Shown here: positions 1 to 24,377 of the stretch, one piece after another
Numbering within the stretch: the first letter of the stretch is position 1
How the letters are laid out: each line of letters opens with the position of its first letter
IMG/VR virus record: IMGVR_UViG_3300031801_001562
DNA: 64,000 bases
Direction: 5' to 3' (one strand)
Origin: a virus
Lineage: Duplodnaviria; Caudoviricetes
Made by a program: the position numbers and the translations under genes
The notes under the pieces: model-generated
What the model was told of the DNA's origin: nothing
The model's input: only the letters and a program-made list of their open reading frames with translations
Databases searched by the model: none

Positions 1-1
1 T

Positions 2-571
2 TCTCCAACTTTTTCTAGTAGCAAATTTCATTCCTTTCTCTTTAGCCATTTGTCTTGCTAAATCAATTTCATGTTCATTATAATCAAAAATAATATATTG
101 CCAAATAGAATGGCCACCTGCTTCATTATATACATTTACATTTTCCCAAACCTTTTCCAAACTAACATTTTCACGATAATCATTTCTAGTAGCTCCGTCA
201 ATAGCCCAATGAACATAAAATCTTTTATCAGAATTTTTAGATAATAATCCAAGATGTTTCCAAAAATCTAAATGTCTGGTTCCACCATTTGTAGACATTT
301 CAATATCTCGAACTTTCTTTTCAAAAAGAAAATAAAATATAATTTCAACTAAATCTGGATTTATTATAGGATCACCTAAAACCCCACACATTTTTATTTT
401 GGTTTTAGTTAAATCTATTTTATCAAACCAATCCTGAATCTCTGAAATATTTAAATTATCTTTTAAATAATATTCTCCACGTTCATCAAGAATAGTTCTC
501 ATACATCCGGAACATTTTGCATTACAAAGAGAAGATAATTCTATTTCTATAATGTTTATATCAAATTGCAT
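2..571 (-). CDS. Radical SAM protein, runs off the left edge (not in ORF track)
   Basis: Manual translation from ATG at 571: MQFDINIIEIELSSLCNAKCSGCMR...GVLGDP...STNGG...WAIDG; CxxxCxxC motif, open to window edge. Confidence 0.9.
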   Translation of the reverse strand, partial: MQFDINIIEIELSSLCNAKCSGCMRTILDERGEYYLKDNLNISEIQDWFDKIDLTKTKIKMCGVLGDPIINPDLVEIIFYFLFEKKVRDIEMSTNGGTRHLDFWKHLGLLSKNSDKRFYVHWAIDGATRNDYRENVSLEKVWENVNVYNEAGGHSIWQYIIFDYNEHEIDLARQMAKEKGMKFATRKSWR

Positions 572-1700
572 CGAGTTCTTGAAAAACTTTTTTTGTTGTT
601 AAATCCGTTTCCCAATTACTTTCTTTTTGAGAAACAATTTCATATGTAAGATCATCAACCACATGCTTTGTAAACATAGGTTCAATATTTTGACTGGTTT
701 TTGTTACACACATTCCACATCCGCAAAATGTCTTAGGGCACGTAATCATCGGTATACGATTATGAACATATAATTCATGTTCTAAACCATCAATGATTTT
801 ATCAAATTCTGAAATCTTACCTAATGGTGCAACTTCTCCATCTAAATTAACCCCGCATGTTTGGTGAGTCCAAACTCTATCAGCTTCAGAATTTATAAAA
901 AGAAAATACCAATTGACCATACAATTCCAACCCACAAAATTAGTGCTAGGAAGGAAATAAGTATCCACACCATCAGCTTTGAAGCTTCTACCCCCGCAGC
1001 AAGGTCGACCAAGCCCGGTTTGACTGTTTCCTTTTTCGGTAACATTTTGTCCTTTCTGTTTCCAATAATTTCGAAACCATTTCATCTGTTCTCGATTATA
1101 ACGATGGGCATATCCTAATTTAATAGCCATTTTATCATTTTCTTCATCACCTATAATTCTGGGAACAAAATCTACTCCGTTTTTTTCTAACTTTTCACAA
1201 ACATCTATACATTCTTTAAAATAATCCTTATGAAACATTACATTAACTTTATACTTAGATCTTAAAGATATTGCATTTGATATACAAGTTTCTTTTTGTT
1301 TCTTTGTGGCTTCACCATGATATGATATAGTACCACCTGTTGTATAAGCATGTACTTGAGATAAAACCTTTTCACCAAACCACCCATTAGTAGTAAGACC
1401 TCTACTAAAATCTGGATATTCATATCTAATATCTTTTAAGAGTTTAAAAAAATCTGGATGAACAGTGGGTTCACCTCCAGTAAAACTTAATTTCTTTTTG
1501 GCAGGTTTTTTTCTAAAAGCATCATATAGCAGTGCATACTCTGCTATTCCTTCCATAGTTTTTTTTAAAGTTTCATATTTTATATATGGAGAAGTTTTAT
1601 TATTACGATGTGGTGGACAATAAGTACAAGCAAACGAACATCGGCGTCCTAAATCCCATATTATCTGATAACGATTTGATTTATCTTCTATACTATACAT
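561..1700 (-). CDS. Radical SAM protein with Cys-rich C-terminal (SPASM-like) region
   Basis: CSFACTYC, FTGGEP, TTNG; C-terminal PCCGGR...CMV...CPKTFCGCGMC; start reassigned to Met31 (1700), giving an 8-nt overlap with the upstream stop. Confidence 0.9.
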   Translation of the reverse strand: MYSIEDKSNRYQIIWDLGRRCSFACTYCPPHRNNKTSPYIKYETLKKTMEGIAEYALLYDAFRKKPAKKKLSFTGGEPTVHPDFFKLLKDIRYEYPDFSRGLTTNGWFGEKVLSQVHAYTTGGTISYHGEATKKQKETCISNAISLRSKYKVNVMFHKDYFKECIDVCEKLEKNGVDFVPRIIGDEENDKMAIKLGYAHRYNREQMKWFRNYWKQKGQNVTEKGNSQTGLGRPCCGGRSFKADGVDTYFLPSTNFVGWNCMVNWYFLFINSEADRVWTHQTCGVNLDGEVAPLGKISEFDKIIDGLEHELYVHNRIPMITCPKTFCGCGMCVTKTSQNIEPMFTKHVVDDLTYEIVSQKESNWETDLTTKKVFQELDAI

Positions 1701-2505
1701 ATCTACCAAATGCCCAATATCGTTCCTGACACCACCAACACTTTTTACAATGTCGAGTATGATGTTTTGTGTCCTCGATACTTCCTTCACAACTATATGT
1801 TAATGGAAATAAAGAATCTAATAATTCTTTATCTTTATATGCTTCTGCTTCCCATTTTTTATTAACATTTATAAATGGATTTATATAGTGTCTATATCCA
1901 TTTCGTTGTTCAACAATTTTATCAACTCCAGTGTCATCCCTAACACGTTCTTTGTTCTTAGGTATCGTTGAATCATCCGCTGGTGGATTTGAAGTGATTC
2001 CTGAATATAATATTTCAAATTTACGATGACGAAAATTATAATCATCTCTTTCCCAAAATATTTTTATTTCTCTCATATATTCATCATCTAATGGAGGATA
2101 ATAAACCTCGTGAGGTAAAATGAAATCAACACCCAAATCTTCCTCTATAAAGTCTATTACGTTTCCGGCATATATAGGATTGTTCGCCCGGCCTCTGCGA
2201 ACAGATATAGGTTGAAATTTAATATCTAATTTTTCATCACGTATTTTTTTACATAATAGATAAGCCAATAAAGAACTATCTGCCCCGCCAGACATCCATT
2301 GTCCTATAACATTAACAGGAATTTCTTCTATATCTGTAGAACCTTCAAACGAACCCAATTTAAATAAAAATTCTTCATTTTCATATGGTTCTTTATCTGC
2401 ATCTTTATATGAATCAAAAAAATCTTCTAAAACTTGTTGCTTTAATCGTTTTGTAGTTGATGGTATTTTAATTTCAACAGTTTTATTTAAATATGTTAAT
2501 TTCAT
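1693..2505 (-). CDS. QueC-like N-type ATP pyrophosphatase (PP-loop)
   Basis: SGGADS PP-loop; C-terminal TYSC...HCKKCWWCQER...AF matching the QueC zinc-site pattern. Confidence 0.75.
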   Translation of the reverse strand: MKLTYLNKTVEIKIPSTTKRLKQQVLEDFFDSYKDADKEPYENEEFLFKLGSFEGSTDIEEIPVNVIGQWMSGGADSSLLAYLLCKKIRDEKLDIKFQPISVRRGRANNPIYAGNVIDFIEEDLGVDFILPHEVYYPPLDDEYMREIKIFWERDDYNFRHRKFEILYSGITSNPPADDSTIPKNKERVRDDTGVDKIVEQRNGYRHYINPFINVNKKWEAEAYKDKELLDSLFPLTYSCEGSIEDTKHHTRHCKKCWWCQERYWAFGRYV

Positions 2506-3929
2506 AATTTATTATACCATTCTAACCATTCTAAATCTGGAAAAATTTTATTAAAATCTAAATCTCTTTTGTCTGATACTTTATAACACCATTCAACTGT
2601 TTCCGGTAATCTTTCGGACCAATCTTCCGAATTCATGAAAGAAGTAAGGCCTTCTAATCTTTTTATTCCGTAAGGAAGTATTTTCCATTCATCCCATGTT
2701 AAATTTTCAACACCATTACATTTGCGCCAATTATCTTTTAACCATTTTCCAAAATCTTTATATTTTAATGTTGTTTCCTTTTTAAACCAATCAGGTAATA
2801 CTTTACAATTTAATTGCGGAGGCCAATATGCAAGATGCAAATCTATCATGCCGGCACCCGCAGGAAATTTATTTAATATCTTCCAATCTTCTTCTAATTT
2901 CCAAGTTATAAATTCGGGTAAGTAAAAAATATTTAGTGCTGTAATACATGTTGCAGTTGTAAGTCTTAAATTATCATAAGGATAATCATCCATTTTATGT
3001 AATTGGTTTACAACTCTTTTCCACTTTGCAGGATATCGAATAAAATAATTTTGTTCTCCGTATGCATCTATACTAAAATGCATAATAACATTTTTAAATT
3101 CTTTCCAAAGATCAAATAAATTAGATTGCCATTCTATACCATTTGAATTATATCTCAGCTCAATATTTTTAGCATGACCCATTTCAATAATTTTTTCAAG
3201 AACTTCATAATGTTCATTCATTATAAGTGATTCTCCACCAGCCCAATATAACTGCCTTAATGTAGGGACTTGTTCGTAAAAGTCTTCCCAAAATTCCGGA
3301 TTTTTTTTATGCCAAGCATAACTTCCACCTGACCATGCTAATTTTCCAGATTCCTTTTCCCACTCCATACTAGACTTGAGTCTTTTATTTTCTAGAGTAG
3401 GCCAAATTTCTTTATATTCTTTTATCCATTTGCTACTATCATGAGGGCTACACATAACACATGCGAGCTGGCACTTATTACCAAGGCGAAGATCAATGTA
3501 CCTTATTTTAGGTGGTATAGCGCCGTCTGTTTCAGTTTCGCCAATGATCTCGTCGAGGCCAAGTTCATTAACCCACTTCGCGGTTTCCCATTGCCTTTTG
3601 CTTCTGTGACCAGCATCTTCTTCCTTAAAACATTTTAAACAAGATGATGGTTTTTCACCTCGCAACATCATTCTTCTGACACCTTTCATATATTCATTAT
3701 TCCAGGCATCTAATAATCTAGTTGTGGCTAAATTTGCTGGCTTACCATCATCTCTTTTAAGAACTCCGGCTTCCGAAACAGTTTTATTAGTAGAATCTTT
3801 ATCTTGTACCGCCGAAGCATTTGCAGTACAGCATACTCTCATATGACCCGATGGTCGAGTCGAAATATGCATCCATGGTAAAGCACAAAATGTTGAAGAT
3901 GGAGTTGGCGGATCATTATCTATTTTCAT
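2502..3929 (-). CDS. N-terminal twitch/SPASM-domain radical SAM protein
   Basis: FCALPW...VCC...CLKCFKEEDAGHRSKR then CQLACVMC, WAGGE, YNSNG, FSIDA. Confidence 0.92.
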   Translation of the reverse strand: MKIDNDPPTPSSTFCALPWMHISTRPSGHMRVCCTANASAVQDKDSTNKTVSEAGVLKRDDGKPANLATTRLLDAWNNEYMKGVRRMMLRGEKPSSCLKCFKEEDAGHRSKRQWETAKWVNELGLDEIIGETETDGAIPPKIRYIDLRLGNKCQLACVMCSPHDSSKWIKEYKEIWPTLENKRLKSSMEWEKESGKLAWSGGSYAWHKKNPEFWEDFYEQVPTLRQLYWAGGESLIMNEHYEVLEKIIEMGHAKNIELRYNSNGIEWQSNLFDLWKEFKNVIMHFSIDAYGEQNYFIRYPAKWKRVVNQLHKMDDYPYDNLRLTTATCITALNIFYLPEFITWKLEEDWKILNKFPAGAGMIDLHLAYWPPQLNCKVLPDWFKKETTLKYKDFGKWLKDNWRKCNGVENLTWDEWKILPYGIKRLEGLTSFMNSEDWSERLPETVEWCYKVSDKRDLDFNKIFPDLEWLEWYNKL

Positions 3930-3930
3930 A

Positions 3931-5106
3931 TTAACTGTCTAACCAGGATATTAAGTTGGGGTGAAGATAATCTCGGAAATTCTGATTACGAGATGAATCA
4001 AACAATTTTATTTCTTTAATCATCTTTTGTTTATCTTCTTGATTATTATCAATAGCATCTTGAATCATATTTAATAACATATGATCACTAAACTCTACAT
4101 TAAGAATTTTATTATATAATTTTTTTAATAAAAATATAGGTAATCTTTTTATACCTATACCTCTGAGATTGGGATATACTTCAGTAAAATAAATATTAAA
4201 TGAATCATTATTCCAGTTTATCAATTCATCTATATAAAATATATTTAATGAACTTACTACACAATTATATTTAATTTCTCTTATATTATAACATTTTTTA
4301 ATAAAATTAGCAATTGATTTTTCTACTTTTTTAAAAGTATATGGATATCTCACATATTCAAAATTTTTCCCTATTGAATCAATCGATATTGTAAAATATA
4401 ATCCCTTGAAGTCGTTAAGAATATCACAAATTTTATTAGTAAATAAAGACCCATTCGTTGTTACATTTAAATTTAACCCATCTTTTTTTAGCGGTATCAT
4501 GGCATTAATAAATTGTTTATTAAAAAGAGGTTCTCCTCCAGTTACTTTTAATGCACCAATTTTGTGTATATTATTGATCACCCACTCCCATTGGGGCAAT
4601 TCTACTGAGCTTAATATATCACTAGAAGAAAAAAATCCATCAGTTACCGAAGTGATATCATCAATGCTTTCATGGCGTTTGAAATAATTAAAATCTTTTT
4701 GAAGTAAGCTTGAAGCCATCGGGGAACACATTCGGCATGCCATATTACATTTATTATCTAATAAAAAATGTACCATTAATCCGAGAGTGTCTTTATCAAT
4801 TTTGTCAGGATTTAATCTGGGACTATGTGGTCCTGTTTTTTCTCGGTCCCAACAAAATTTACACCTTTTATCTTTTACGCCCTTTAGGTGGTTATCCTGC
4901 AGGGTTCGATAATTTGAAGAATCAATTATTTGTTCCGGATTTAATTCCGAATCATTGGATTGCCATTCAAGGGGGTTTGGTATTTTTTGAATAGGGCAAT
5001 GGCTTTCATTATTTTTAGTTATAGCCTCACAGGGCATAAAAAGAGGAAAATCTTTTTTTCGATTTATAAAAAAAACAGATTTAAATGGTAAATCACAAAG
5101 AGGCAT
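3931..5106 (-). CDS. N-terminal twitch-domain radical SAM protein
   Basis: LCDLPF...CKFCWDREKTGPHSPR; CNMACRMC; TGGEP; TTNG; ISIDS. Confidence 0.9.
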   Translation of the reverse strand: MPLCDLPFKSVFFINRKKDFPLFMPCEAITKNNESHCPIQKIPNPLEWQSNDSELNPEQIIDSSNYRTLQDNHLKGVKDKRCKFCWDREKTGPHSPRLNPDKIDKDTLGLMVHFLLDNKCNMACRMCSPMASSLLQKDFNYFKRHESIDDITSVTDGFFSSSDILSSVELPQWEWVINNIHKIGALKVTGGEPLFNKQFINAMIPLKKDGLNLNVTTNGSLFTNKICDILNDFKGLYFTISIDSIGKNFEYVRYPYTFKKVEKSIANFIKKCYNIREIKYNCVVSSLNIFYIDELINWNNDSFNIYFTEVYPNLRGIGIKRLPIFLLKKLYNKILNVEFSDHMLLNMIQDAIDNNQEDKQKMIKEIKLFDSSRNQNFRDYLHPNLISWLDS

Positions 5107-5109
5107 TTT

Positions 5110-5778
5110 CTAAACATAATTAACACTGATTTGCTTATTGCGCTTTAATGATGGAAATGTAAAAGTAGGATCGCTGTGATGTTCTCGTCTATCTCTTTTT
5201 GTATCTGCAACACCAACACCCATTAACAATACAGGGCTCTCTCCTAAAATATCTTTAACAGCTTGAGAATCCATACACTTACAACAACCAGTGGAATAAC
5301 CCATCTGCGTTGCTATAACATTTACGTAGCCGGCTGAAATACCAATCGCCATTGCACGATCTTCTTCATAATCATCATCCTCTTCTCTTACTTGAGTAGG
5401 TTCATTTTTAGTAAATGCCAATAGCATTTGTCCTAAAACTTGAGGATTAGTATACCAATCGCCCTCTCCATCACCTTCTTCAAAGTGAGCTCGACCGTCT
5501 TTAGATCTTTCATGAGGAGATTTGTTCGCATCATAGGTTTTATAGATTGGTCCAAAGCCTTCTGTGTGTGAATGAATTTTTTCAATCATATCTCGATCTT
5601 CAATAACGTGAAGATTAAAATAGTTAAGATTTTGTTTTGAAGGAGAATTAGTTGCGGCCTCAACAATTAAATCTTTATCTTCTTGAGGAATGTCTTTACT
5701 TAAATCCCAATTCCTCTGACACTTTTGAGATTCATGAATCGTTTCTCGCAGCATCTTATTAAATGAACCATGTGCCAT
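5110..5778 (-). CDS. Nitroreductase-family flavoprotein
   Basis: CQRNWD...IP...AATNSPSKQN N-terminal FMN-binding signature; ATQMGYSTGCC; LLMGVG. Confidence 0.8.
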   Translation of the reverse strand: MAHGSFNKMLRETIHESQKCQRNWDLSKDIPQEDKDLIVEAATNSPSKQNLNYFNLHVIEDRDMIEKIHSHTEGFGPIYKTYDANKSPHERSKDGRAHFEEGDGEGDWYTNPQVLGQMLLAFTKNEPTQVREEDDDYEEDRAMAIGISAGYVNVIATQMGYSTGCCKCMDSQAVKDILGESPVLLMGVGVADTKRDRREHHSDPTFTFPSLKRNKQISVNYV

Positions 5779-5802
5779 AATTATTTCCTTATTAAATTTT
5801 TA

Positions 5803-6132
5803 TTAATCAATAATCTGTTCCATAACATCTGAAACGGTATAACTTATATTATATTTATGCATTAATCTTTTTTGATCATTTCTTAATTTTATACTATTAT
5901 AATATTCTTCTTGTGTTTGATATATGTGTGTTAATATACCGATATTAGGCGGGGTAAAGGTTAAGAAAAAGTGTTCATGACCATATTGCTCCATAAGTTT
6001 AAAATTATATATTCGTAAAGGATCTTTGTTTTGGGGCACCAACGATATTTCAAACCATTTTTTAAATTCATATTTATTTTTAAATGCTTTATCAGAACAC
6101 GTTATTATTGTTTGTATAATATATCTATTCAT
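5803..6132 (-). CDS. Hypothetical protein (109 aa)
   Basis: ORF fills the gap; start reassigned to Met60 (MNRYII), 8-nt overlap with the upstream stop. Confidence 0.6.
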   Translation of the reverse strand: MNRYIIQTIITCSDKAFKNKYEFKKWFEISLVPQNKDPLRIYNFKLMEQYGHEHFFLTFTPPNIGILTHIYQTQEEYYNSIKLRNDQKRLMHKYNISYTVSDVMEQIID

Positions 6133-6649
6133 TATTCTCCGGAATAATCCATGGATAATCAATATTACTTGGTGCCGAAAAATAGTTAAGAGACCAACGA
6201 TTATTCTTACATTCAACTTTATGTTCCATTGCCGGCTTATTAAATTGTTTTGCTCCCATATCGCCGAGCCAAATAAACAATCCATAATCCAACTCTTCCC
6301 ATTGTTCATTTATTTTAAGATACATTCCAGGATAAATGTTATAAAGAAAAGATAACATTCCTCTATCTGTATGCTCTCTAATATAACCTTTATTATATTT
6401 TAATATCGAAGCTTTAAAGTTTTTTGTATTTTCATATAAAGGATCATCTAAAATATCCATATTTAAATTATACATTTCACTACACCATTTTTCAGCCTTC
6501 ATTTCTAGAAATGGAGTCCAATCATACATTTCCATTTTCCAATAGTTATCGTGAAAGTTATTCCATTCTACATTATCAAATTCTTTAATAGGGATATCAA
6601 TTTGATAATCTATTTTACAATATCCTTTATCTAATATTTTATCTATCAT
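6125..6649 (-). CDS. Small Fe(II)/2-oxoglutarate oxygenase (IPNS-like fold)
   Basis: Y...HTD...LSFL...GD...H.V...RWS.NYF = HxD...H triad plus RxS motif. Confidence 0.8.
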   Translation of the reverse strand: MIDKILDKGYCKIDYQIDIPIKEFDNVEWNNFHDNYWKMEMYDWTPFLEMKAEKWCSEMYNLNMDILDDPLYENTKNFKASILKYNKGYIREHTDRGMLSFLYNIYPGMYLKINEQWEELDYGLFIWLGDMGAKQFNKPAMEHKVECKNNRWSLNYFSAPSNIDYPWIIPENNE

Positions 6650-10025: not shown

Positions 10026-10026
10026 A

Positions 10027-10884: not shown

Positions 10885-10899
10885 TTAATTCCCTTTTGA

Positions 10900-11979: not shown

Positions 11980-11987
11980 ATAATTAT

Positions 11988-17037: not shown

Positions 17038-19232
17038 AAATTATATCTCCAAATATTTTGTTTTACATTATTAAACATTTTACATTCCACCAAATCCACG
17101 ATACCTTTTTGGGATAACTTTTTCATAATGTTTGAAAATTTATAACTCCTGACACCAGTTTTAGAATCTACATTATTTGTTAAATAATATGGACCGACAC
17201 CGCCGGTAATTTCCTTTTGGATGTTTATATGGCTCCATTGATACGAACTTTGTGTAATATCTCTCGATACTTTTTTTACATATCCAGGAAGAGAAGCGCC
17301 TCTGAATAATAAGCGGTATCCTTTTAATTCTTCCTCCCATTTAACCCCACTCATAGAAATTAAAGTTGAACCTATAAAAGTTCCCACCCATTTGGCTTCA
17401 TTATATTTGATACTTTTTAAACTCACATTATTATTGTATCTTGAATATGAACATTCAACTAAAAATTCCAATATTATCAGTAAATCATCATCATTTAATA
17501 ATCTATTCCCACATACTATACTACTTCCAAACCGGTTCGGATGCAGCCGACCATAACCCGCACTTAAATTATGTATATGTTTATTAAAATATATGGATAT
17601 AAAATTTTCAATGTCCTTTAAAACTAAAATAATATTTTGTCGAAGATACTTGATGGAACGTGTATTATCAACCACATGATCATAGTCATCATATGTATTA
17701 TGAATATTATTTTTTATTTGATTATATAATACGCCTATGATTGTTGTTTGCATATCTTGAAACTTGGAAGTGATGAATATCGGATCACTTTCTAAATAAT
17801 CTTGAAATTTAACAAAAAAATCTTTTAATGTAACTTCATCTTTTAAATAATCATAATATATGTATTTTAATATTCGTTGTTCTCCAAACCAAAAATTCAT
17901 AACAATCCATGCGAACATCCAGCCTTTAACAACATCTTCATAAGACATAGATTTCAAAGAAGTAATTATTTCACATTCTTCCATGTCGACATTAAAAGGG
18001 ATAATTTTTGTTTTTATTTTAAAACGTTCCCTATAAGATTTATCATTAAGTTCCGCGTTAGGTAAAATCAAACAAGGATATACGTTTATTTTTAATTTTT
18101 TAACAGGCATTAACGCGGATAACTCATCAACCCACCCATCATACGTAGTACCTGGTAAGGGGTATATTAATTCAACTTCTCTCTCTGTAGAATCCATCTT
18201 ATCTGCATTGACAATGCTCATATTTTTTCTTTTAATATTAGATAAAACTTCTGGATTGGTAGATTGTAAAGCTACTCTAGGAACAGTATTATTATTCTCA
18301 ATACCCTCTAATAATCGTTGTTGTATTTGTAATGAAGAATTTTTACTTGGTGGTGTTTTTGCATAACCTGAGTGTGCTATTTTTTTGGGATAGCCTGTGG
18401 CTTCATGATATCCCACTGCCTTATCTATTATATTATAATCTCTTTCTTTAAATATGCCCAAATTACTATTTGTGAACCAAAGATAATTTATTTTATTACG
18501 ACTAACCCATTCGAATTCTTTAAATAATCGCGGTTCATCAAATTTTATCATTTTTTGTGCAGTTAAACTACCCCAATCACAAAAAGTACATTTAAATGGA
18601 CAACCTCTATCCATCTCAACGGTAGCGTGAAAATTAACCGAAGGATTTTTTAATATAATATTATTAAAAAGACCCGACAAATATGGACTAGGGATTGTAT
18701 TAATATCTTTAATTCTGGAAGCCGGCTTCGTTTTAAAAATTTTATTATTTTTTCTAAAAATAAGACCCGGTATCTCAGAAAAATCTTTTTTATTAAAATA
18801 TTCTAATAAAATTTGTTCAAAGACTTTTTCTCCTTCTCCCACAACACCAATATCTACATAGTCATGCGAATTATACCATTTGCTATCATTAGAATTAGGC
18901 ACATGTGGTCCGCCACAAATAATCAAACAATTAGGATACTTTTTTTTTATTTTTTTTAATATATAAAGGTGCTTATTAGAATTCCACATATAATTACTAG
19001 TAGCAACTATATCTGGTTGTCCCATATTATCAATATAATAATCTAAATTATCTATATTAAACACCAAATCTTTTAATATAAAATTATCGGATATTATTTT
19101 ATTTTGTAAACAATAAGACCAAAGAAGGCCGGCGGAATATGGTAAAAATGCCGATTTATTACTTGACATTTCAGTGCCAGTTGAAGAGTCTATTAAAGGA
19201 GCCGTTAATTGTAATAGATATATATTTTTCAT
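17034..19232 (-). CDS. Cobalamin-binding radical SAM protein with extra C-terminal domain
   Basis: FLPYSAGLLW...PDIVATSNYMWN...GGPH; DRGCPFKCTFCDWG; about 170 aa unassigned C-terminal extension. Confidence 0.92.
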   Translation of the reverse strand: MKNIYLLQLTAPLIDSSTGTEMSSNKSAFLPYSAGLLWSYCLQNKIISDNFILKDLVFNIDNLDYYIDNMGQPDIVATSNYMWNSNKHLYILKKIKKKYPNCLIICGGPHVPNSNDSKWYNSHDYVDIGVVGEGEKVFEQILLEYFNKKDFSEIPGLIFRKNNKIFKTKPASRIKDINTIPSPYLSGLFNNIILKNPSVNFHATVEMDRGCPFKCTFCDWGSLTAQKMIKFDEPRLFKEFEWVSRNKINYLWFTNSNLGIFKERDYNIIDKAVGYHEATGYPKKIAHSGYAKTPPSKNSSLQIQQRLLEGIENNNTVPRVALQSTNPEVLSNIKRKNMSIVNADKMDSTEREVELIYPLPGTTYDGWVDELSALMPVKKLKINVYPCLILPNAELNDKSYRERFKIKTKIIPFNVDMEECEIITSLKSMSYEDVVKGWMFAWIVMNFWFGEQRILKYIYYDYLKDEVTLKDFFVKFQDYLESDPIFITSKFQDMQTTIIGVLYNQIKNNIHNTYDDYDHVVDNTRSIKYLRQNIILVLKDIENFISIYFNKHIHNLSAGYGRLHPNRFGSSIVCGNRLLNDDDLLIILEFLVECSYSRYNNNVSLKSIKYNEAKWVGTFIGSTLISMSGVKWEEELKGYRLLFRGASLPGYVKKVSRDITQSSYQWSHINIQKEITGGVGPYYLTNNVDSKTGVRSYKFSNIMKKLSQKGIVDLVECKMFNNVKQNIWRYNL

Positions 19233-20236
19233 GCCGCGGCATCATTTAAAAATTTATAAGAATAATTTTCCCTAAAAAAATTAATTTGATATTTGGGTTT
19301 ATTCAATGTATGATATTTTTTTAAAGATCTCCAATATTCAGTATGATCATTTTTAGAAGAAGTGTAAAACAATTCTAAAAAATCATATACATGCCGACAC
19401 AATCTAACATATGAACGATTAAATATTTCCTCTTTATTTTTTTTATATTTTAATTTTTCAATAGTTTCTATCGCCCATGTTATTAGAAAAAGTCCTGTAG
19501 CTTCAAGAGGTTCTGCAAATCCACAACTTAATCCCACAGATACGGTATTCCCCAACCACGGAGTTAAACAATATCTATTATTAAAGGGAATGGCGCGAAT
19601 GTCTTCGGCTTTAACATTACCTACATTTTTATTTTTAAATTCTTCAATGGCATCATTTACACTTATAAAATTATTATTAAAAACATACCCATTACCACTC
19701 CTTGATCTTAAATCTACATTCCACATCCACCCATAATCCATAGCGAAAGTGTTTGTTATAGATTGACAATTAGAATCACCAGGCGCGAAGAGGGCCATAT
19801 TATTAGACAGAGTTTTATAAGAACCAAATTGTTTATTTTTAGAAAAATCACTATTGAATCCAGTACAATCTATTACTAGATCAGGATTATCCACTTTACA
19901 TAATCTAGGTCGCGTTATTTCTTCTAGAAGAATAATCATTTTTAACGCATCTAAATGATAAGCATGCATATTATTGGGAAACGGGTGTATCCAATCAGTT
20001 TTATGCCAACCATGATGTTTAATACCATATTTAATTACGCCGTCACACTTATTAATTACATCATCTTCAGATATTCCACAATAATCAAAGAATTTAACTA
20101 GTCCAGGTAATGTACTTTCTCCAACACCTATAGGTTTGGAATTTTTAGGAAGTTTTATTTCAACTTTATTAGTTTGGGATAAATATGCGGCAGCTAACCA
20201 ACCGGCGCTTCCACCGCCTAAAATTATTATGTTCAT
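19229..20236 (-). CDS. Short flavin-dependent (tryptophan) halogenase homologue
   Basis: GGGSAG, PIGVGES, KYGIK, IDCTGF, WMW, FAEPLEATG; start Met3 gives an ATGA overlap. Confidence 0.85.
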   Translation of the reverse strand: MNIIILGGGSAGWLAAAYLSQTNKVEIKLPKNSKPIGVGESTLPGLVKFFDYCGISEDDVINKCDGVIKYGIKHHGWHKTDWIHPFPNNMHAYHLDALKMIILLEEITRPRLCKVDNPDLVIDCTGFNSDFSKNKQFGSYKTLSNNMALFAPGDSNCQSITNTFAMDYGWMWNVDLRSRSGNGYVFNNNFISVNDAIEEFKNKNVGNVKAEDIRAIPFNNRYCLTPWLGNTVSVGLSCGFAEPLEATGLFLITWAIETIEKLKYKKNKEEIFNRSYVRLCRHVYDFLELFYTSSKNDHTEYWRSLKKYHTLNKPKYQINFFRENYSYKFLNDAAA

Positions 20237-20874
20237 AGACAAAGCTTCGTCCTTCTATAAGTTATATCCCATGACTTAAATTCTTGCAATGATTCTATCT
20301 TATAACCAAAACTATTTAAATATACTTCAATATCTTCTTCACTATGTCCATACTGTTTTAATTGATGAGGATATGCTTGATATACTATTGTAGGTAAATA
20401 TTTTTCAATAGTTCTTTCTAATCCTAACAATGCTTCATATTCCATACCTTTTATATGCATTTGTATAAAAGTAATATTTTTAAAATCGAAATCATCAATA
20501 ACTTTTACTATTACTTCTTCGCCTTCTTCTTCATTTAATTGATAACCTCCATAATTACCTTCTTGATCAGGCTTAGCAAATTTTTTGCTTTGTTTAGAAG
20601 CTGCGGCAAATGGAAATATTTTTACATCGGGTACATTTTGTCTTAAACATTCACAATTACTTTCTATAGGTTCCCAAGCATACACTTCATCAAACTTTTT
20701 AGTTAATTGCCTACTCCAAATACCAACATGAGCTCCTACATCAATAGCATTACCCTTAGGTACTGATTTAAGTATTTCTCTATGAATACTACCATCCATA
20801 GGAAAACCGCTTGAATGCATATATTCAAAAAATGAATCATCATCTTGTATGTAAAAGTTGCCTATCTTCTTCAT
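20233..20874 (-). CDS. FkbM-family SAM-dependent methyltransferase
   Basis: AIDVGAHVGIWS, AWEP...N, IDDFDF...FIQMHIKGMEY; start Met8. Confidence 0.85.
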   Translation of the reverse strand: MKKIGNFYIQDDDSFFEYMHSSGFPMDGSIHREILKSVPKGNAIDVGAHVGIWSRQLTKKFDEVYAWEPIESNCECLRQNVPDVKIFPFAAASKQSKKFAKPDQEGNYGGYQLNEEEGEEVIVKVIDDFDFKNITFIQMHIKGMEYEALLGLERTIEKYLPTIVYQAYPHQLKQYGHSEEDIEVYLNSFGYKIESLQEFKSWDITYRRTKLCL

Positions 20875-21041
20875 TTCCCTCCGCGCTTCTTCCACTGCTC
20901 AGGATACTTTTCTCGTAATATCTCATCTATAGAATCTTCAAATGCTTTGCTATTTCTGCCTGGTTTATAAGTACAAGGAAATTTAAAATCTTTATTCCCA
21001 AAGTTTTTTTTCCAAAAGTTGACTATCTTGTTTATTATCAT
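20871..21041 (-). CDS. Small hypothetical protein, 56 aa (not in ORF track)
   Basis: MIINKIVNFWKKNFGNKDFKFPCTYKPGRNSKAFEDSIDEILREKYPEQWKKRGGK; ATGA overlaps at both ends. Confidence 0.7.
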   Translation of the reverse strand: MIINKIVNFWKKNFGNKDFKFPCTYKPGRNSKAFEDSIDEILREKYPEQWKKRGGK

Positions 21042-22462
21042 ACATGTACCATAGTCAAAAAATCATCATGTGTAATATTGTTTGAATAATCTATATCGTA
21101 ATCAGGCTCTGTCCAATCTACATATTTCATATTTTTTGTTTTGTTTAAGTACGGTTTTTCGTAACCAATTAACATTGATGCAAGGTTAAAATGATTAAAA
21201 ATGGTTTCTCCTTTTTTACAATATCTCTTTTTAGAAAGAAACATATTCAAATAATCATTATATTCTTCAATGTTTTGTTGATTATTCCAATATCTCCAAA
21301 ATTCGGAATCAGTTCTGTCACTCAATGTATAATGATATTTTACAAATTCTTTTGAATGTTTGAGAAATCTTTTGAGATGCCTAGATAAAACTTTAGATTC
21401 TTTTGAAGTCCATTTCTTTTTCTTTTTATATTGGTCTACAAAATTAATTACCGTCACACAGGTTAACATCAATGAAGTCGCTTCCATAGGTTCTATAAAA
21501 CTCTGTGCCAGCCCATTTGATATGCAATTATCGACCGCAACATTTTTCATAGATCCATTTTCATATTTTATGCAATCAAATACAAAATCTATTTGGCCAT
21601 TCCAAGCATCTTTTAAAATTTTTCTTGCCTCATCATCAGTAGTAAAATAATCTGAATAGATAAATCCACCCGCAGTTCTATTACGTGTGTTCACATCCCA
21701 CAACCATCCATCAGGTTTTGCAGTCAATTCCGTATAAATTTTATGTTGTTTAGGAACACCTCTGACTTTTCCAGCAACAAATTTATTACAAATCATGTCA
21801 TCATAACTTTCATAATCAGACAATTTTGAAATCAAAACTCTATTAAAACCAGAGCAATCAAAAAATACATCACCATATACGGTTTGGCCATTTTCTAAAC
21901 GTAAAAATTCTATACCATTTTCATTTATGCAAACATCTTTTACACCACTGGTAATTAATGTGTAATCATTGAGATGTTTCTGTAATGTCGCTCCAAATTT
22001 ATCTGCTAATATTTGATATGCATGCCCTGGTCGATCACTAATTGTTTTTGGATAAGGAGTTAAATTTTTATCAAGCAAATATTGTTGAGGACCGTGAAAT
22101 AAATTAAAATATTTTGTGGACATATCTAAATTATTGATACAATACTCAACAGAATCTACTTTTGTTTCTGAAAATTCGAAAGCATCTTCAAATAAATGAT
22201 ACCACACGCTACCTGAATAATTCCAATCATTAAATTTAATTCCATATTTAAATGTAGCATCACTATCTTTTAACCAAACATTTTCTGAAATATTTGCATT
22301 TTCGGCTATCAAACGCAATGTCGGTGTTACTGTTTCACCAACACCAATCGGGTTATTTTGCTCTTCGTGAATAACTGTCAACTCACAATCAATAGAATTT
22401 TTTATATAACTAGCAGTTGTCCAACCTGCGGAACCGCCACCGACTACTACGATTCTAACCAT
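21038..22462 (-). CDS. Flavin-dependent (tryptophan) halogenase homologue
   Basis: GGGSAG, PIGVGET, ATFKYGIKF (catalytic Lys position), FDCSGF, WLW, FIEPMEATS. Confidence 0.9.
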   Translation of the reverse strand: MVRIVVVGGGSAGWTTASYIKNSIDCELTVIHEEQNNPIGVGETVTPTLRLIAENANISENVWLKDSDATFKYGIKFNDWNYSGSVWYHLFEDAFEFSETKVDSVEYCINNLDMSTKYFNLFHGPQQYLLDKNLTPYPKTISDRPGHAYQILADKFGATLQKHLNDYTLITSGVKDVCINENGIEFLRLENGQTVYGDVFFDCSGFNRVLISKLSDYESYDDMICNKFVAGKVRGVPKQHKIYTELTAKPDGWLWDVNTRNRTAGGFIYSDYFTTDDEARKILKDAWNGQIDFVFDCIKYENGSMKNVAVDNCISNGLAQSFIEPMEATSLMLTCVTVINFVDQYKKKKKWTSKESKVLSRHLKRFLKHSKEFVKYHYTLSDRTDSEFWRYWNNQQNIEEYNDYLNMFLSKKRYCKKGETIFNHFNLASMLIGYEKPYLNKTKNMKYVDWTEPDYDIDYSNNITHDDFLTMVHV

Positions 22463-23592
22463 TGTGTTAAATATGGATGTAAATAATTTTGAAATTGTTG
22501 ATTTCGAGAAAAATCAAATAGTGTAATTTCTTTAAGCATTTTCTTTTTATTTTCCACATTTCTTTTAAAATATGAATTGCGTATTTGATTAAACTTTTTC
22601 GAATCTATCCGAGGAACTTTTTCTAACAATTGTCTGCTTAGATGAATCGGGCTTATACCTCGATTATCTGGATATACTTCACAATATGAAACATAAACTT
22701 TTTTAGGTAAGGTGCAACACCATTGCCAATGATTAAGCAAATCTAAAATATTTAAAGCAGAAACAACAACTGCCACATTAACTCTTCCTAAATTTGTAGA
22801 AGTTGTTAAAAATAATCTTATGGTCTTATCTAGTTCATCAAACGATTGAGGATATCTTATATATTCGTAACCTTCTTCAACTGAATCTATACTTAATTTA
22901 GGATGCTGCTTTTTAAATTTATTTAATTTTTTAATTAATCGATCGTTAAACATTGTACCATTAGTATGATACGCAAGAATAGTATTTTTAGCCCATCCAT
23001 TATCAATATATTTATCGAGAAGTTTCAAAACTTGTGTATCAAAAAAAGGTTCCCCTCCACTGAATCTAAGTTCCTTTAAGGGATTATTTAAAAGCCAATT
23101 ATATTGTTTTGAATTGGAAGTTTTGGGAATTGTAATCCGCCCCCTAAATTTACCAGATGTAGACTCTTCAACTTCATGAAGTATGCCTTCTTTGCTAAAG
23201 AATTCATAATCTAACATTAATCTATGACTCGTTTGAGGATCACACATTCTACAAGCCAGATTACATTTATTAGAAAAAATGAAATCAACTACATCTAATT
23301 TTCCTCTGGGAATAGTATCATCATTATGGATTCTGAAAGATTCGATACCTCTATCTTCCATATCCCAACAAGTTTTACAAAATGGATGTTTTATATTATT
23401 AGATAAAGCTTCGCGTAATTCTTTAAATTGTTTTGAATTAAAAGCTTCTTCGGGGGTAAGATCTGTCTCTTCCCATTCCATTGGGTCTTCCCAATCGGGT
23501 CGTGACATATTACAACAAGGATGAAACCATTTAATTTTGTCTCCATCCCAATCTCTAATTGTAATTTGTTTAAAGGGATAACTACATAACAT
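22447..23592 (-). CDS. N-terminal twitch-domain radical SAM protein
   Basis: LCSYPF...PCCN...CKTCWDMEDRGIESFR; CNLACRMC; SGGEP; HTNG; LSIDS. Confidence 0.92.
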   Translation of the reverse strand: MLCSYPFKQITIRDWDGDKIKWFHPCCNMSRPDWEDPMEWEETDLTPEEAFNSKQFKELREALSNNIKHPFCKTCWDMEDRGIESFRIHNDDTIPRGKLDVVDFIFSNKCNLACRMCDPQTSHRLMLDYEFFSKEGILHEVEESTSGKFRGRITIPKTSNSKQYNWLLNNPLKELRFSGGEPFFDTQVLKLLDKYIDNGWAKNTILAYHTNGTMFNDRLIKKLNKFKKQHPKLSIDSVEEGYEYIRYPQSFDELDKTIRLFLTTSTNLGRVNVAVVVSALNILDLLNHWQWCCTLPKKVYVSYCEVYPDNRGISPIHLSRQLLEKVPRIDSKKFNQIRNSYFKRNVENKKKMLKEITLFDFSRNQQFQNYLHPYLTQWLES

Positions 23593-24377
23593 TATTCTAC
23601 ATTAAAATCATCACTCGCAAAGCTTGCTTCCCAACCAAACTTTTTAATTTCAGTAGGATCAGCACAAGTTTCTTCGCTCTCACCGGTTACATTTTTAAAA
23701 TCAATTGAATCAATATCAATATCTTCCGGTGCATGTTCTTTAGCAAAATCATAAACAGATTTTGGTGTTCCATATCCAATATCAAAAACTTTAGGAAATT
23801 TTTTCCATACAGGAGTTTCAGTCATTAGTAAATATATAGCTTTTACACAATCTTTTACATATAACCAATCTCTCGTATGAGTTGTTAAATAATTAATATT
23901 TCCTTCTTGTAATTGTCTATAAAACATATCAGGTCGCGAATTCGATCCCCATACTGTAAAGAATCTCATTCCTATAGCATTAGTTGGTGCCATTACTTCA
24001 CAGACCCCTTTAGTCATTGCGTAAGGACTTTTCATATCCGAAACTGAAGAACTCGATGCATATAAGATTTTAGAATTTTTATAAGTATCAAAGATACGTT
24101 TTGTTCCCTTAATATTTACTTCATAATATTCTTTTAAATATTTTGGATCCCAACTATTACGAACACCGGCTCTCGCAGCTAAATGAACTACAACTTTTGC
24201 ATCAACATGAGGTAAATCATCTGTGGTAATATCACAATGAGAATGAGGAACTTCGCGATCCTCCCAACCTAATCCCGAACAATTATCAATACCATAAACT
24301 TCATGACCCTCTTCAGTTAAAAAATTAAATAAATGATGACCTATAAATCCTTTAACTCCAGTAATTAAAATTTTCAT
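23592..24377 (-). CDS. NAD-dependent epimerase/dehydratase (extended SDR)
   Basis: ILITGVKGFIG, VVHLAARAGVR, YASSSS, YAMTK, RFFTVWG; start Met4. Confidence 0.9.
   Translation of the reverse strand: MKILITGVKGFIGHHLFNFLTEEGHEVYGIDNCSGLGWEDREVPHSHCDITTDDLPHVDAKVVVHLAARAGVRNSWDPKYLKEYYEVNIKGTKRIFDTYKNSKILYASSSSVSDMKSPYAMTKGVCEVMAPTNAIGMRFFTVWGSNSRPDMFYRQLQEGNINYLTTHTRDWLYVKDCVKAIYLLMTETPVWKKFPKVFDIGYGTPKSVYDFAKEHAPEDIDIDSIDFKNVTGESEETCADPTEIKKFGWEASFASDDFNVE

What the first reader, a model, noticed from the sequence alone, without database searches (positions are those of the whole stretch)
1..24377. A >24 kb phage-encoded tailoring-enzyme cluster with no visible scaffold
Seen: at least 27 contiguous, translationally coupled genes on one strand, continuing off the left edge. 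They include 9 radical SAM proteins, 5 Fe/2OG-type oxygenases, 2 halogenase homologues, 2 FkbM methyltransferases, QueC-like, nitroreductase, AKR, nucleosidase, adenylation and epimerase genes. No NRPS, PKS, terpene synthase, transporter or regulator is present. Known: each family installs C-methyl, O-methyl, hydroxyl, halide, amide or crosslink modifications. Inference: a lytic phage keeping this much chemistry without a biosynthetic scaffold is probably decorating a macromolecule it already makes, such as virion proteins or glycans, its DNA or host tRNA. A RiPP-type peptide is another option. This would be an uncharacterised multi-step modification system and is the best candidate for a new system in this window.
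Basis: partly seen in the sequence, partly recalled or inferred. Interest (0 to 1): 0.9.

Follow-up and report, generated by a model that had tools for sequence, protein, structure and literature searches.

The report
Phage radical-SAM sugar-tailoring gene island
An uncultured marine T4-like phage devotes about a quarter of its genome to a conserved, selected, horizontally exchanged island of about 16-19 iron-sulfur "radical SAM" enzymes plus oxygenases, halogenases and methyltransferases. It most likely builds and edits an unusual sugar decoration, but what it makes and where the product goes is untested.

Summary
Window 2-24386 (minus strand) holds 26 abutting or overlapping ORFs. Nine are radical SAM genes with an intact CX3CX2C motif. 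The rest include three firm and two putative Fe/2OG oxygenases, two flavin halogenases, two FkbM methyltransferases, a QueC-like PP-loop ATPase, a nitroreductase, an AKR, a mini adenylating enzyme and an SDR epimerase.

The island runs off the left edge. In a complete 167-kb relative it spans about 43 kb with 19 radical SAM genes. The genes are under purifying selection (omega mostly 0.06-0.3) and keep their order across many marine contigs. The 1-20 kb part is 82-94% identical in DNA between phages whose backbones are only about 72-76% identical, so it is an exchanged cassette.

"No visible scaffold" is only partly right. An NDP-heptose-type module with a GT1 lies 3.6 kb upstream. In real bacterial contigs (Bdellovibrionales MAGs) orthologues of the island's radical SAM set sit among family-2 glycosyltransferases.

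My best reading is glycan or glycoconjugate tailoring (0.42). A RiPP or protein target, a small molecule and nucleic acid are rivals. No DpdA/TGT and no ThyA-type hydroxymethylase is present. The pelagimyophage literature mentions radical SAM cassettes, and this scan found similar islands on other DNA. No function has been shown.

The parts
2..571 (-). radical SAM enzyme, N-terminal 190 aa; the gene runs off the left edge (328 aa in same-strain contig L033)
   Evidence: PF04055 38 bits; CX3CX2C at residue 16; full length seen in L033
561..1790 (-). radical SAM enzyme, 409 aa, 14 Cys
   Evidence: PF04055 45 bits; CX3CX2C at 51; omega 0.15-0.22
1693..2505 (-). QueC-like PP-loop ATPase (putative ATP-dependent carboxylate amidation), 270 aa
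   Evidence: Weak QueC C-terminal hit, E=0.003. SGGxDS motif and C-terminal Cys cluster. 95-97% conserved, omega about 0.1. Follows the 475-aa rSAM in other phages too.
2502..3929 (-). N-terminal-twitch radical SAM enzyme (NF033640), 475 aa; the most widespread marker of the island
   Evidence: NF033640 402 bits against a cut-off of 170. More than 3000 homologues. AF2 model pLDDT 84. No close solved relative.
3931..5106 (-). N-terminal-twitch radical SAM enzyme, 391 aa
   Evidence: NF033640 172 bits; CX3CX2C at 120
5110..5778 (-). nitroreductase-family flavoenzyme; inferred flavin reductase or redox partner
   Evidence: PF00881 47 bits; co-occurs with the rSAM set in distant contigs
5803..6132 (-). 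109-aa conserved protein, no family
   Evidence: Called as a gene on public contigs; omega 0.2-0.34; no Pfam hit
6125..6649 (-). 174-aa putative small Fe/2OG oxygenase
   Evidence: 2OG-FeII_Oxy E=0.025, below cut-off; HxD...H motif
6639..7121 (-). 160-aa MTA/SAH-nucleosidase-like protein (weak); inferred removal of 5'-deoxyadenosine and SAH
   Evidence: NCBIfam nucleosidase models, 26-30 bits, far below cut-offs
7106..8248 (-). N-terminal-twitch radical SAM enzyme, 380 aa
   Evidence: NF033640 201 bits; SPASM hit at residues 14-80
8212..8961 (-). aldo/keto reductase, 249 aa
   Evidence: PF00248 90 bits; DkgA-like
8958..10025 (-). N-twitch-like radical SAM enzyme, 355 aa (below the family cut-off)
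   Evidence: NF033640 130 bits against 170; CX3CX2C at 106
10027..10884 (-). FkbM-family methyltransferase; divergent allele between relatives
   Evidence: TIGR01444 42 bits; only 62-65% identity to relatives, omega 0.4-0.6
10900..11979 (-). TauD/TfdA-family Fe/2OG dioxygenase
   Evidence: PF02668 42 bits
11988..13004 (-). PhyH-family Fe/2OG dioxygenase
   Evidence: PF05721 45 bits; nearest solved PtlH, SnoN and SnoK
12988..14817 (-). cobalamin-dependent radical SAM C-methyltransferase, TokK/CysS/KedN5-like, 609 aa
   Evidence: B12-binding domain; NF033712 234 bits; TokK 2.6e-66 and CysS 1.5e-47
14814..15740 (-). PhyH-family Fe/2OG dioxygenase
   Evidence: PF05721 37 bits
15734..16429 (-). 231-aa conserved protein, no family; HxD...H motif suggests a cupin or 2OG-type oxygenase (unverified)
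   Evidence: omega 0.08-0.12
16417..17037 (-). minimal ANL (adenylate-forming) core, 206 aa, from the P-loop motif to the TGD motif only
   Evidence: PF00501 66 bits, covering profile positions 168-330 of 384; motifs seen
17034..19232 (-). second cobalamin-dependent radical SAM C-methyltransferase, 732 aa, with a roughly 170-aa C-terminal extension of no known family (a separate ORF in relative G001)
19229..20242 (-). compact flavin-dependent halogenase homologue, 337 aa
   Evidence: PF04820 211 bits; GxGxxG, Lys and Glu retained; 95-99% conserved, omega 0.06-0.12
20233..20895 (-). FkbM-family methyltransferase; a variable cassette replaced by another ORF in relatives
   Evidence: PF05050 44 bits; absent in G001
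20871..21041 (-). 56-aa basic ORF, conserved at 80-84%; no precursor-like features
21038..22462 (-). flavin-dependent halogenase homologue, 474 aa
   Evidence: PF04820 250 bits. Nearest solved are Trp 5-, 6- and 7-halogenases at about 1e-42 and VirX1 at 5e-30. Only 44% identity to the G001 counterpart.
22447..23592 (-). N-terminal-twitch radical SAM enzyme, 381 aa
   Evidence: NF033640 203 bits
23592..24386 (-). short SDR NAD-dependent sugar epimerase/dehydratase homologue; first gene of the island
   Evidence: PF01370 85 bits; GalE and ADP-heptose-6-epimerase models at about 1e-12, below cut-offs
28027..31908 (-). Associated candidate scaffold supply (inferred link). GmhA-like SIS isomerase 28027-28716; GHMP kinase 28706-29668; cytidylyltransferase-like nucleotidyltransferase 29637-30056; GT1 glycosyltransferase 30053-31048; polysaccharide-pyruvyl-transferase-like 31045-31908.
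   Evidence: conserved in G001 at backbone-level divergence

Best explanation
The island is a phage-borne pathway that builds and heavily tailors an unusual sugar or glycoconjugate.

Shown by tool results: the gene families, their intact catalytic motifs, conservation, selection, cassette exchange, and the glycosyltransferase context in bacteria.

Inferred pathway:
1. The phage makes an activated sugar with its own GmhA-like isomerase, GHMP kinase and nucleotidyltransferase.
2. GT1 and other transferase-like proteins attach it to an acceptor. The acceptor could be the host envelope or virion or tail-fibre proteins; this is unknown.
3. The island enzymes then edit it.

Inferred roles of the editing enzymes:
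- The SDR and the AKR set keto and hydroxyl stereochemistry.
- Each of the many N-terminal-twitch radical SAM paralogues (19-25% identical to each other) abstracts a hydrogen at one position, for oxidation, epimerisation, deoxygenation or C-C bond formation.
- FkbM enzymes O-methylate. The two TokK/CysS-like B12 radical SAM enzymes extend methyl groups by C-methylation.
- TauD and PhyH enzymes hydroxylate.
- The QueC-like ATPase and the mini ANL enzyme activate a carboxylate for amide formation.
- The two compact halogenases halogenate an electron-rich substituent.
- The nitroreductase-family protein may supply reduced flavin.
- The nucleosidase-like protein may clear 5'-deoxyadenosine and SAH.
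For: 1. Cellular contigs carry the same rSAM set in a glycosyltransferase context. These contigs hold ATP synthase gamma/beta or NuoL and come from Bdellovibrionales MAGs. They carry orthologues (about 50% identity) of the 475-aa N-twitch rSAM, together with relatives of two other island rSAMs and a methyltransferase-like protein. The genes sit among four to five GT2 glycosyltransferases and an SDR. In L029 a GT2 lies between the two rSAM genes.
2. The phage has an NDP-heptose-type module, a GT1 and a pyruvyl-transferase-like gene 3.6 kb upstream, conserved in relatives.
3. The island starts with a sugar-type SDR. It contains an AKR, FkbM methyltransferases and PhyH proteins. The PhyH proteins weakly match the 'sporadic carbohydrate cluster' oxygenase TIGR04324.
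4. Tail-end ORFs of the island in G001 resemble viral clusters by language-model features. These clusters are annotated GT9 heptosyltransferase (60 of 100 hits, score 0.94-0.95), class I methyltransferase, and DUF6071/GDSL. These are leads only.
5. A cassette present in relatives adds a PLP aminotransferase fragment.
6. The island is functional. All nine rSAMs keep CX3CX2C, and the N-twitch paralogues keep four N-terminal Cys. Omega is 0.06-0.3. Gene order is conserved with modular indels.
7. PMC7029224 places rSAM cassettes with LPS and glycosyltransferase genes in pelagimyophage hypervariable regions.
Against: - No canonical glycosyltransferase lies inside window 1-24386.
- The GT9-like call failed HMM and profile tests: PF01075 was not found there, hhalign gave E=0.075-0.5, and the PDB profile search found nothing.
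- The heptose module is separated from the island by core genes and has backbone-level divergence, so the link is by proximity only. Its GmhA hit (100 bits) is below the equivalog cut-off, and no GmhB phosphatase was identified.
- Flavin halogenases and TokK/CysS-type methylases are not known to act on sugars.
- The nearest solved structures to the N-twitch rSAM are a tie of peptide maturases (CteB, SkfB, SuiB, anSME) and nucleoside or sugar enzymes (BlsE, viperin, MoaA) at Z of about 10, which does not discriminate.
- The acceptor is unknown.
Confidence: 0.42

Rival explanations
1. The island performs RiPP-like or protein post-translational tailoring. In this reading the enzymes modify amino-acid side chains of a peptide or of a virion or tail-fibre protein encoded elsewhere, by radical cross-links or epimerisation, C-methylation, hydroxylation and halogenation, in the manner of proteusin or sactipeptide maturation.
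For: - SPASM/twitch rSAMs are typical peptide maturases. The top structural neighbours include CteB, SkfB, SuiB, anSME and ChlB.
- Both B12-rSAMs also hit the RiPP C-methyltransferase models TIGR03975 and ApyD at 1e-13 to 1e-17.
- The halogenases are short (474 and 337 aa, against about 510-550 aa for solved Trp halogenases). This suggests an open site for a bulky substrate.
- In another phage contig the rSAM array abuts collagen-like proteins and proteins of 644-982 aa.
Against: - No precursor-like small ORF was found. The only conserved small ORFs are a 56-aa basic protein and, in G001, lipoprotein-like ORFs.
- No RRE or PqqD family, protease or leader-type motif was detected.
- No carrier-protein motif was found.
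- The B12-rSAMs match the small-molecule methylases TokK, CysS and KedN5 far better.
- Bacterial orthologues lie among GT2 genes.
Confidence: 0.2
2. The island makes a diffusible small molecule, such as an aminoglycoside-like, nucleoside-like or aromatic metabolite, during infection. The metabolite could suppress competitors or manipulate the host.
For: - TokK/CysS/KedN5-type iterative methylases, an ANL enzyme, halogenases, PhyH/TauD oxygenases and an AKR are classic secondary-metabolite tailoring enzymes.
- A first-stage note reports a second cluster in this genome with amidinotransferase and DegT-like genes (e1-5403607, not tested here).
- A cyanophage paper calls such a trio 'antibiotic synthesis genes' (PMC12801897).
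Against: - No core scaffold synthase, carrier protein, exporter or self-resistance gene was found.
- A lytic infection gives little time for a product that must act outside the cell.
- The bacterial GT2 context points to a polymer-linked product.
Confidence: 0.15
3. The island hypermodifies nucleic acid, either phage DNA or host/phage tRNA, to evade restriction or retune translation.
For: - There is a QueC-like ATPase, rSAM cores with weak viperin, MoaA and QueE similarity, and a nucleosidase-like protein.
- Phage DNA hypermodification pathways can use rSAM and PLP enzymes (PMC8989533).
Against: - Complete or near-complete relatives have no TGT/DpdA and no ThyA-family hydroxymethylase.
- ThyX is present.
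- No DNA glycosyltransferase, kinase or pyrophosphorylase of the known pathways was seen.
- Roughly 19 rSAMs far exceeds any known base-modification pathway.
- The bacterial context is GT2-rich.
Confidence: 0.06
4. The island is decaying or selfish cargo with no coherent function.
For: - It sits in a plastic genome region and contains swapped cassettes (20233-22462).
- Some genes are unusually short (ANL core, halogenase, AKR).
- Two genes are split in G001.
Against: - Omega is 0.06-0.3 for nearly all genes.
- All catalytic motifs are intact.
- Gene order is conserved over many contigs and oceans.
- Short contigs identical to the island occur in four RNA libraries.
Confidence: 0.03

Closest known systems
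Hypervariable 'host recognition cluster' of pelagimyophages and cyanomyophages (Zaragoza-Solas et al. 2020, PMC7029224)
   Same: Both are large accessory regions of marine T4-like phages that carry LPS or glycosyltransferase genes. [quoted passage not shown] All of this matches what is seen here.
   Different: The paper gives no function and no inventory of the rSAM genes. This phage's relatives lack the curli CsgG reported for all marine PMP groups, and they lack psbA. The island here lies next to replication genes, and its 1-20 kb part is more conserved than the backbone rather than hypervariable.
NCBIfam NF033640, N_Twi_rSAM (twitch domain-containing radical SAM protein)
   Same: Four window proteins score above the 170-bit cut-off (172-402 bits). 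They have the N-terminal four-Cys auxiliary-cluster domain followed by CX3CX2C.
   Different: The family is defined computationally, and no member has a known substrate or a solved structure. One paralogue (8958-10025) is below the cut-off, and three other rSAMs in the window are outside the family.
TokK/ThnK/CysS/KedN5 cobalamin-dependent radical SAM iterative C-methyltransferases
   Same: Both have a B12-binding domain plus a radical SAM domain. TokK (2.6e-66) and CysS (1.5e-47) are the best solved matches. FkbM methyltransferases nearby could supply methyl groups to be extended, as in the methoxy-to-isopropoxy chemistry of CysS. That chemistry is cited from my own knowledge.
   Different: Scores of 203-234 bits are far below the 700-bit cut-off of NF033712. 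There is no carbapenem, cystobactamid or enediyne context and no carrier protein.
Cyanophage and pelagiphage flavin-dependent halogenases (for example VirX1; HTVC008M PrnA-like gene)
   Same: They belong to the same Pfam family and keep the FAD and catalytic motifs. In cultured marine myoviruses the homologues also sit beside PhyH and 2OG oxygenases.
   Different: Identity is only 24-31%. One copy is a 337-aa compact form. Here the halogenases are embedded in an rSAM island rather than among the neck and terminase genes.
Proteusin or sactipeptide RiPP maturation clusters
   Same: The enzyme mix is the same: SPASM/twitch rSAMs, B12 C-methyltransferases, Fe/2OG hydroxylase and methyltransferases. 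The nearest solved folds include CteB and SkfB.
   Different: No precursor peptide, RRE, protease or transporter was found.
Virion glycosylation in mycobacteriophages, and phage-encoded O-antigen modification
   Same: Both are phage-encoded sugar-nucleotide and glycosyltransferase genes that decorate the virion or the host surface. This comparison rests on my own knowledge and on scan note e1-2912501.
   Different: Those systems have a few GTs and no radical SAM array. No acceptor is identified here.

Membership tests
NF033640 N_Twi_rSAM | Score at or above the curated cut-off of 170 bits over nearly the whole model | tested here: met
   2502-3929: 402 bits. 3931-5106: 172 bits. 7106-8248: 201 bits. 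22447-23592: 203 bits. 8958-10025 reaches only 130 bits and is not met.
NF033640 N_Twi_rSAM | N-terminal Cys-rich twitch domain before a CX3CX2C radical SAM core | tested here: met
   Four invariant N-terminal Cys plus CX3CX2C in 8 aligned paralogues. Pfam SPASM hits at the N-termini.
Radical SAM superfamily | CX3CX2C cluster motif and a PF04055 match | tested here: met
   All nine genes carry the motif. PF04055 or B12-binding/NF033712 hits support them.
KedN5/TokK/CysS B12-rSAM subfamily (NF033712) | Score at or above 700 bits | tested here: not met
   234 and 203 bits. These are related class-B methylases, not members of the curated subfamily.
Flavin-dependent (Trp-type) halogenase | PF04820 above cut-off; GxGxxG; catalytic Lys; conserved Glu | tested here: met
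   250 and 211 bits. Motifs were read. The WxWxIP motif is only WxWxV(N/D), a partial match.
Flavin-dependent (Trp-type) halogenase | C-terminal substrate 'pyramid' that binds free tryptophan | tested here: inconclusive
   The proteins are 474 and 337 aa, against 510-550 aa for solved Trp halogenases. Alignments end near residue 390-400. No structure was modelled.
RiPP biosynthetic cluster | A precursor peptide gene | tested here: not met
   No small ORF with leader/core features was found in the window or in G001. A precursor encoded elsewhere cannot be excluded.
RiPP biosynthetic cluster | RRE/PqqD-like recognition domain, leader protease or transporter | tested here: inconclusive
   No such Pfam or NCBIfam hit. 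Absence of a hit does not exclude a divergent domain.
NDP-heptose pathway (GmhA, kinase, GmhB, nucleotidyltransferase) | All four activities present | tested here: inconclusive
   GmhA-like protein scores 100 bits against a cut-off of 209. A GHMP kinase domain and a CTP_transf_like domain are present. No GmhB was identified; an NT5C/HAD-like gene at 32836-33300 is only a candidate.
Glycan biosynthesis locus | Glycosyltransferase genes co-located with the tailoring genes | tested here: inconclusive
   Met in bacterial orthologous loci, with 4-5 GT2 genes. In the phage, GT1 lies 5.7 kb upstream. The GT9-like tail-end ORF rests on language-model features only and failed HMM and profile tests.
Pelagimyophage (PMP) host recognition cluster | PMP backbone markers (curli CsgG/F) and an island contiguous with the tail-fibre genes | tested here: not met
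   No CsgG in G001 or G002. The island abuts the RNase H and nuclease genes on one side. Tail-fibre adjacency was not examined.
7-deazaguanine or hydroxymethyl-pyrimidine DNA hypermodification | DpdA/TGT transglycosylase or a ThyA-family hydroxymethylase | tested here: not met
   No PF01702 and no PF00303 match in G001 (100% complete) or G002.

The most novel reading that the evidence does not exclude
The island is a self-contained, horizontally exchanged 'surface-chemistry cassette'. About 16-19 distinct radical SAM enzymes of an unstudied N-terminal-twitch family, together with iterative B12 C-methylases and halogenases, rewrite a glycan or the side chains of the phage's own receptor-binding or virion proteins. 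This would give marine T4-like phages a chemical, not only sequence-based, way to diversify host recognition or evade defences. It would also reveal new radical chemistry on carbohydrates that operates in oxic, iron-poor seawater hosts.
Probability: 0.2. Interest if true: 0.9.

Novelty: new variant of a known kind. Interest (0 to 1): 0.66.

Why it matters
The product could be any of three things: a radical-tailored glycan, a modified virion protein, or a metabolite. In any of these cases it would be chemistry with no characterised precedent in viruses.

- **Cost to the phage.** A lytic phage of the open ocean keeps about 43 kb (about 26% of a 167-kb genome) for roughly 19 oxygen-sensitive, iron-hungry enzymes. 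It keeps them under purifying selection and passes the block between diverged phage lineages.
- **New enzymology.** Working out the product would assign function to NF033640, a family with thousands of environmental members and no known substrate.
- **Phage biology.** It would also open a testable link between accessory gene islands and host recognition or superinfection exclusion in abundant marine phages.
- **Practical limit.** The phages are uncultured, so tests must start from heterologous expression.

Tried and rejected
**Searches for known relatives**
- Megablast of 24 kb stretches against 50,697 GenBank phage records found no match.
- tblastn of the 475-aa rSAM and the B12-rSAM found only weak hits, in Vibrio and Ralstonia jumbo phages and in gut phage contigs. 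The Vibrio K566 context was uninformative.
- No whole genome is held for the window.

**Promoters and terminators**
- The sigma-70 and terminator scans gave no more hits than shuffled sequence.
- TATAAATA is depleted: 7 matches against 16 expected. All are on the coding strand, and three lie inside the island (10131, 11175, 13125). I did not treat this as evidence of timing.

**Structure**
- The single-sequence AF2 fold of G001 ORF 91707-92456 failed (pLDDT 36).
- The N-twitch rSAM model was searched against PDB and AFDB. It gave generic rSAM matches only, with peptide maturases tied with BlsE, viperin and MoaA.

**The GT9 lead**
- PF01075 was not found at that ORF.
- hhalign against E. coli WaaC/WaaF gave E=0.5 and 0.075.
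- The PDB profile search found nothing.
- No homologue carries a GT Pfam label.

**Unassigned pieces**
- The C-terminal extension of the 732-aa B12-rSAM and the 231-aa protein have no PDB or Pfam match.

**Other negatives**
- A carrier-protein motif scan found nothing credible.
- No tRNA or Rfam family lies in the window.

**RNA libraries**
- Only short contigs were laid from the RNA runs. The tool warns that DNA carry-over cannot be excluded, and uncovered bins mean nothing.

Full report
**What is in the window**

All long ORFs lie on the minus strand, and GC content is about 31%. The right part of the window is a T4-type replication and nucleotide-metabolism module. It holds a gp43-like polymerase, UvsX, a gp41-like helicase, RNR, ThyX, RNase H and CobS. 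The nearest cultured phages are cyanomyoviruses, at about 50% polymerase identity. No GenBank phage record matches at the DNA level. No whole genome is held for the window.

**Check of the observation**

From 2 to 24386 I count 26 ORFs. Every junction overlaps or leaves at most 24 nt, and the first gene overlaps the upstream Cas4-like nuclease gene.

- Nine radical SAM genes, all with CX3CX2C.
  - Four reach the curated cut-off of NF033640, the 'N-terminal twitch' family, and a fifth is related.
  - Two are cobalamin-dependent. Their best solved relatives are the iterative C-methylases TokK (2.6e-66) and CysS (1.5e-47).
- TauD, two PhyH proteins, two Trp-halogenase-family proteins, two FkbM methyltransferases, a nitroreductase, an AKR and an SDR epimerase.
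- An adenylation gene that is only a 206-aa core, running from the P-loop motif to the TGD motif.

Some calls are weaker:
- The QueC-like gene has a weak profile hit, but it has a clear SGGxDS PP-loop and a C-terminal Cys cluster.
- The nucleosidase scores far below its cut-offs.
- Two of the five Fe/2OG oxygenases rest on E=0.025 or on a motif alone.

Both halogenases keep the FAD motif and the catalytic Lys and Glu. They are short, at 474 and 337 aa.

**Extent of the island**

The island runs off the window. L033, a public contig of the same strain with 100% identical proteins, continues with more radical SAM genes.

IMG/VR holds relatives with the same gene order at 60-99% protein identity. 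One of them, G001, is 167,436 bp, and CheckV rates it 100% complete. In G001:
- The island runs from about 54.1 to 97.5 kb, or about 43 kb.
- It holds 19 radical SAM genes.
- It ends in eight ORFs without Pfam hits.

The paralogues are only 19-25% identical to one another but keep all cluster ligands. They are therefore old, differentiated enzymes.

**Is it functional?**

- Selection: pairwise dN/dS against six related loci gives omega of 0.06-0.3 for nearly every gene.
- Conservation: gene order is conserved, and differences are indels or swaps of cassettes. Examples are the FkbM gene 20233-20895, the halogenase 21038-22462, and a cassette in G001 with an aminotransferase fragment and small SPASM rSAMs.
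- Distribution: near-identical DNA occurs in at least 16 runs from 11 of the listed studies, labelled seawater, marine or hydrothermal-vent metagenome. The exact 475-aa protein is on 17 contigs.
- Expression: four RNA libraries from four studies hold short contigs with no mismatches to several island genes. The tool warns of possible DNA carry-over, so this is only weak support.

**An unexpected pattern**

Window 1-20.2 kb is 82-94% identical in DNA to G001, L015 and L016. The adjacent backbone is only 71-78% identical in the same contigs. The break falls at the swapped 20.2-22.5 kb cassette.

Synonymous divergence agrees. dS is 0.1-0.4 for genes 8212-20242, against about 0.6-2.5 for backbone genes. 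The block has been exchanged between diverged phage lineages more recently than their backbones split.

**What it acts on**

No scaffold synthase, carrier protein, precursor peptide, transporter or regulator is present. Three lines of evidence point to carbohydrate.

1. The bacterial context. A scan of species genomes found orthologues of the 475-aa rSAM (about 50% identity) on contigs that are clearly cellular, because they carry ATP synthase gamma/beta or NuoL. On these contigs it travels with relatives of two other island rSAMs and a methyltransferase-like protein. The set sits among four to five GT2 glycosyltransferases and an SDR.
2. The phage's own sugar genes. It encodes a GmhA-like isomerase, a GHMP kinase, a cytidylyltransferase-like enzyme, a GT1 and a pyruvyl-transferase-like protein at 28027-31908. 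These are conserved in G001.
3. The island's gene content. It opens with a sugar-type SDR and contains an AKR, FkbM enzymes and PhyH proteins that weakly match a carbohydrate-cluster oxygenase model. Its tail-end ORFs resemble viral clusters labelled GT9 heptosyltransferase, methyltransferase and DUF6071/GDSL by language-model features.

The GT9 lead failed every sequence-profile test I could run, so it stays a lead.

The AF2 model of the 475-aa rSAM is good (pLDDT 84). Its solved neighbours are a tie of peptide maturases with BlsE, viperin and MoaA at Z of about 10. The fold therefore does not decide the substrate class.

**Rival readings**

- A RiPP or protein target fits the enzyme mix and the compact halogenases. 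It lacks a precursor, an RRE and a protease.
- A diffusible metabolite fits the TokK/CysS-type methylases and the ANL core. It lacks a scaffold synthase and an exporter.
- Nucleic-acid modification is disfavoured. G001 and G002 have no TGT/DpdA and no ThyA-type hydroxymethylase, and ThyX is present.
- Decay is rejected by the selection data.

**Support functions (inferred)**

- The nitroreductase-family protein could reduce flavin for the halogenases.
- The nucleosidase-like protein could remove 5'-deoxyadenosine and SAH.
- CobS in the window could relate to the cobalamin need of the B12 enzymes.
- In another phage contig an rSAM array ends with a ferredoxin gene.

**Comparison with what is known**

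Zaragoza-Solas et al. 2020 (PMC7029224) described hypervariable regions rich in LPS and glycosyltransferase genes in pelagimyophages. [quoted passage not shown]

The relatives here lack the curli CsgG gene reported for marine pelagimyophages, and they lack psbA. The host is unknown.

NF033640 has no characterised member.

Earlier notes of this scan report similar radical SAM plus glycosyltransferase islands in at least 36 other genomes, and a Bdellovibrionota cassette. Notes on this same genome give the left extension and a second tailoring cluster. I used these as leads. The bacterial GT2 context and the left extension I checked myself.

**Verdict**

This is a real, large, selected and mobile enzyme island. 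It is best read as a radical-SAM-rich glycan or glycoconjugate tailoring pathway (0.42), with a peptide or protein target as the main rival (0.20). It is a new variant of the known phage surface-modification islands. Its chemistry is wholly uncharacterised.

Noticed in passing
window 1-20242 versus 22447-48470: There is a mosaic boundary. The island is 82-94% identical in DNA to relatives whose backbone is only 71-78% identical, and dS is about four-fold lower in the island. The break coincides with a swapped FkbM/halogenase cassette at 20.2-22.5 kb.
   Followed up: yes
window 28027-31908 (-): An NDP-heptose-type module sits inside the replication gene block. It comprises a GmhA-like isomerase, a GHMP kinase and a cytidylyltransferase-like protein, followed by a GT1 and a polysaccharide-pyruvyl-transferase-like gene.
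   Followed up: partly
window 17034-19232 (-) and G001 58984-61108: The 732-aa B12-rSAM carries a roughly 170-aa C-terminal extension of no known family. In G001 this extension is a separate 164-aa ORF just upstream of the mini ANL core. It could be a split or fused adenylating enzyme, or a frameshift.
   Followed up: partly
L019 20980-21427 (G001 69963-70410): The relative G001 has two small lipoprotein-like ORFs (77 and 73 aa, signal peptide plus Cys) inserted between the AKR and the next rSAM. They are absent from the window.
   Followed up: no
window 10131-10138, 11175-11182, 13125-13132 (-): The T4 late-promoter-like octamer TATAAATA is depleted in the window (7 matches against about 16 expected). 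It occurs only on the coding strand. Three copies lie inside island genes, about 100-120 nt upstream of the next start codon in two cases.
   Followed up: no
L036 21401-21431 and upstream (155-kb ENA contig): In another T4-like contig an rSAM array lies back to back with collagen-like ORFs and ORFs of 644-982 aa. The array ends with a 7Fe-type ferredoxin gene, a plausible electron donor.
   Followed up: no
window 45305-48470 and 62678-63871 (-): There are cytidyltransferase/phrog_455 proteins, possibly for NAD salvage, and a CobS-like 'porphyrin biosynthesis' ATPase. CobS may be relevant to the cobalamin need of the B12 radical SAM enzymes.
   Followed up: no
window 31923-32309 (+): This is the only sizeable plus-strand ORF in this part of the window (128 aa, acidic and Lys-rich, no family sought). 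An opposite-strand ORF sits at the same place in G001.
   Followed up: no
L007 1538-2712 (G001 73506-74680): The orthologue of rSAM 3931-5106 is split into 251 and 140 aa in G001 but is intact in G002. This is either a frameshift or an assembly error.
   Followed up: no
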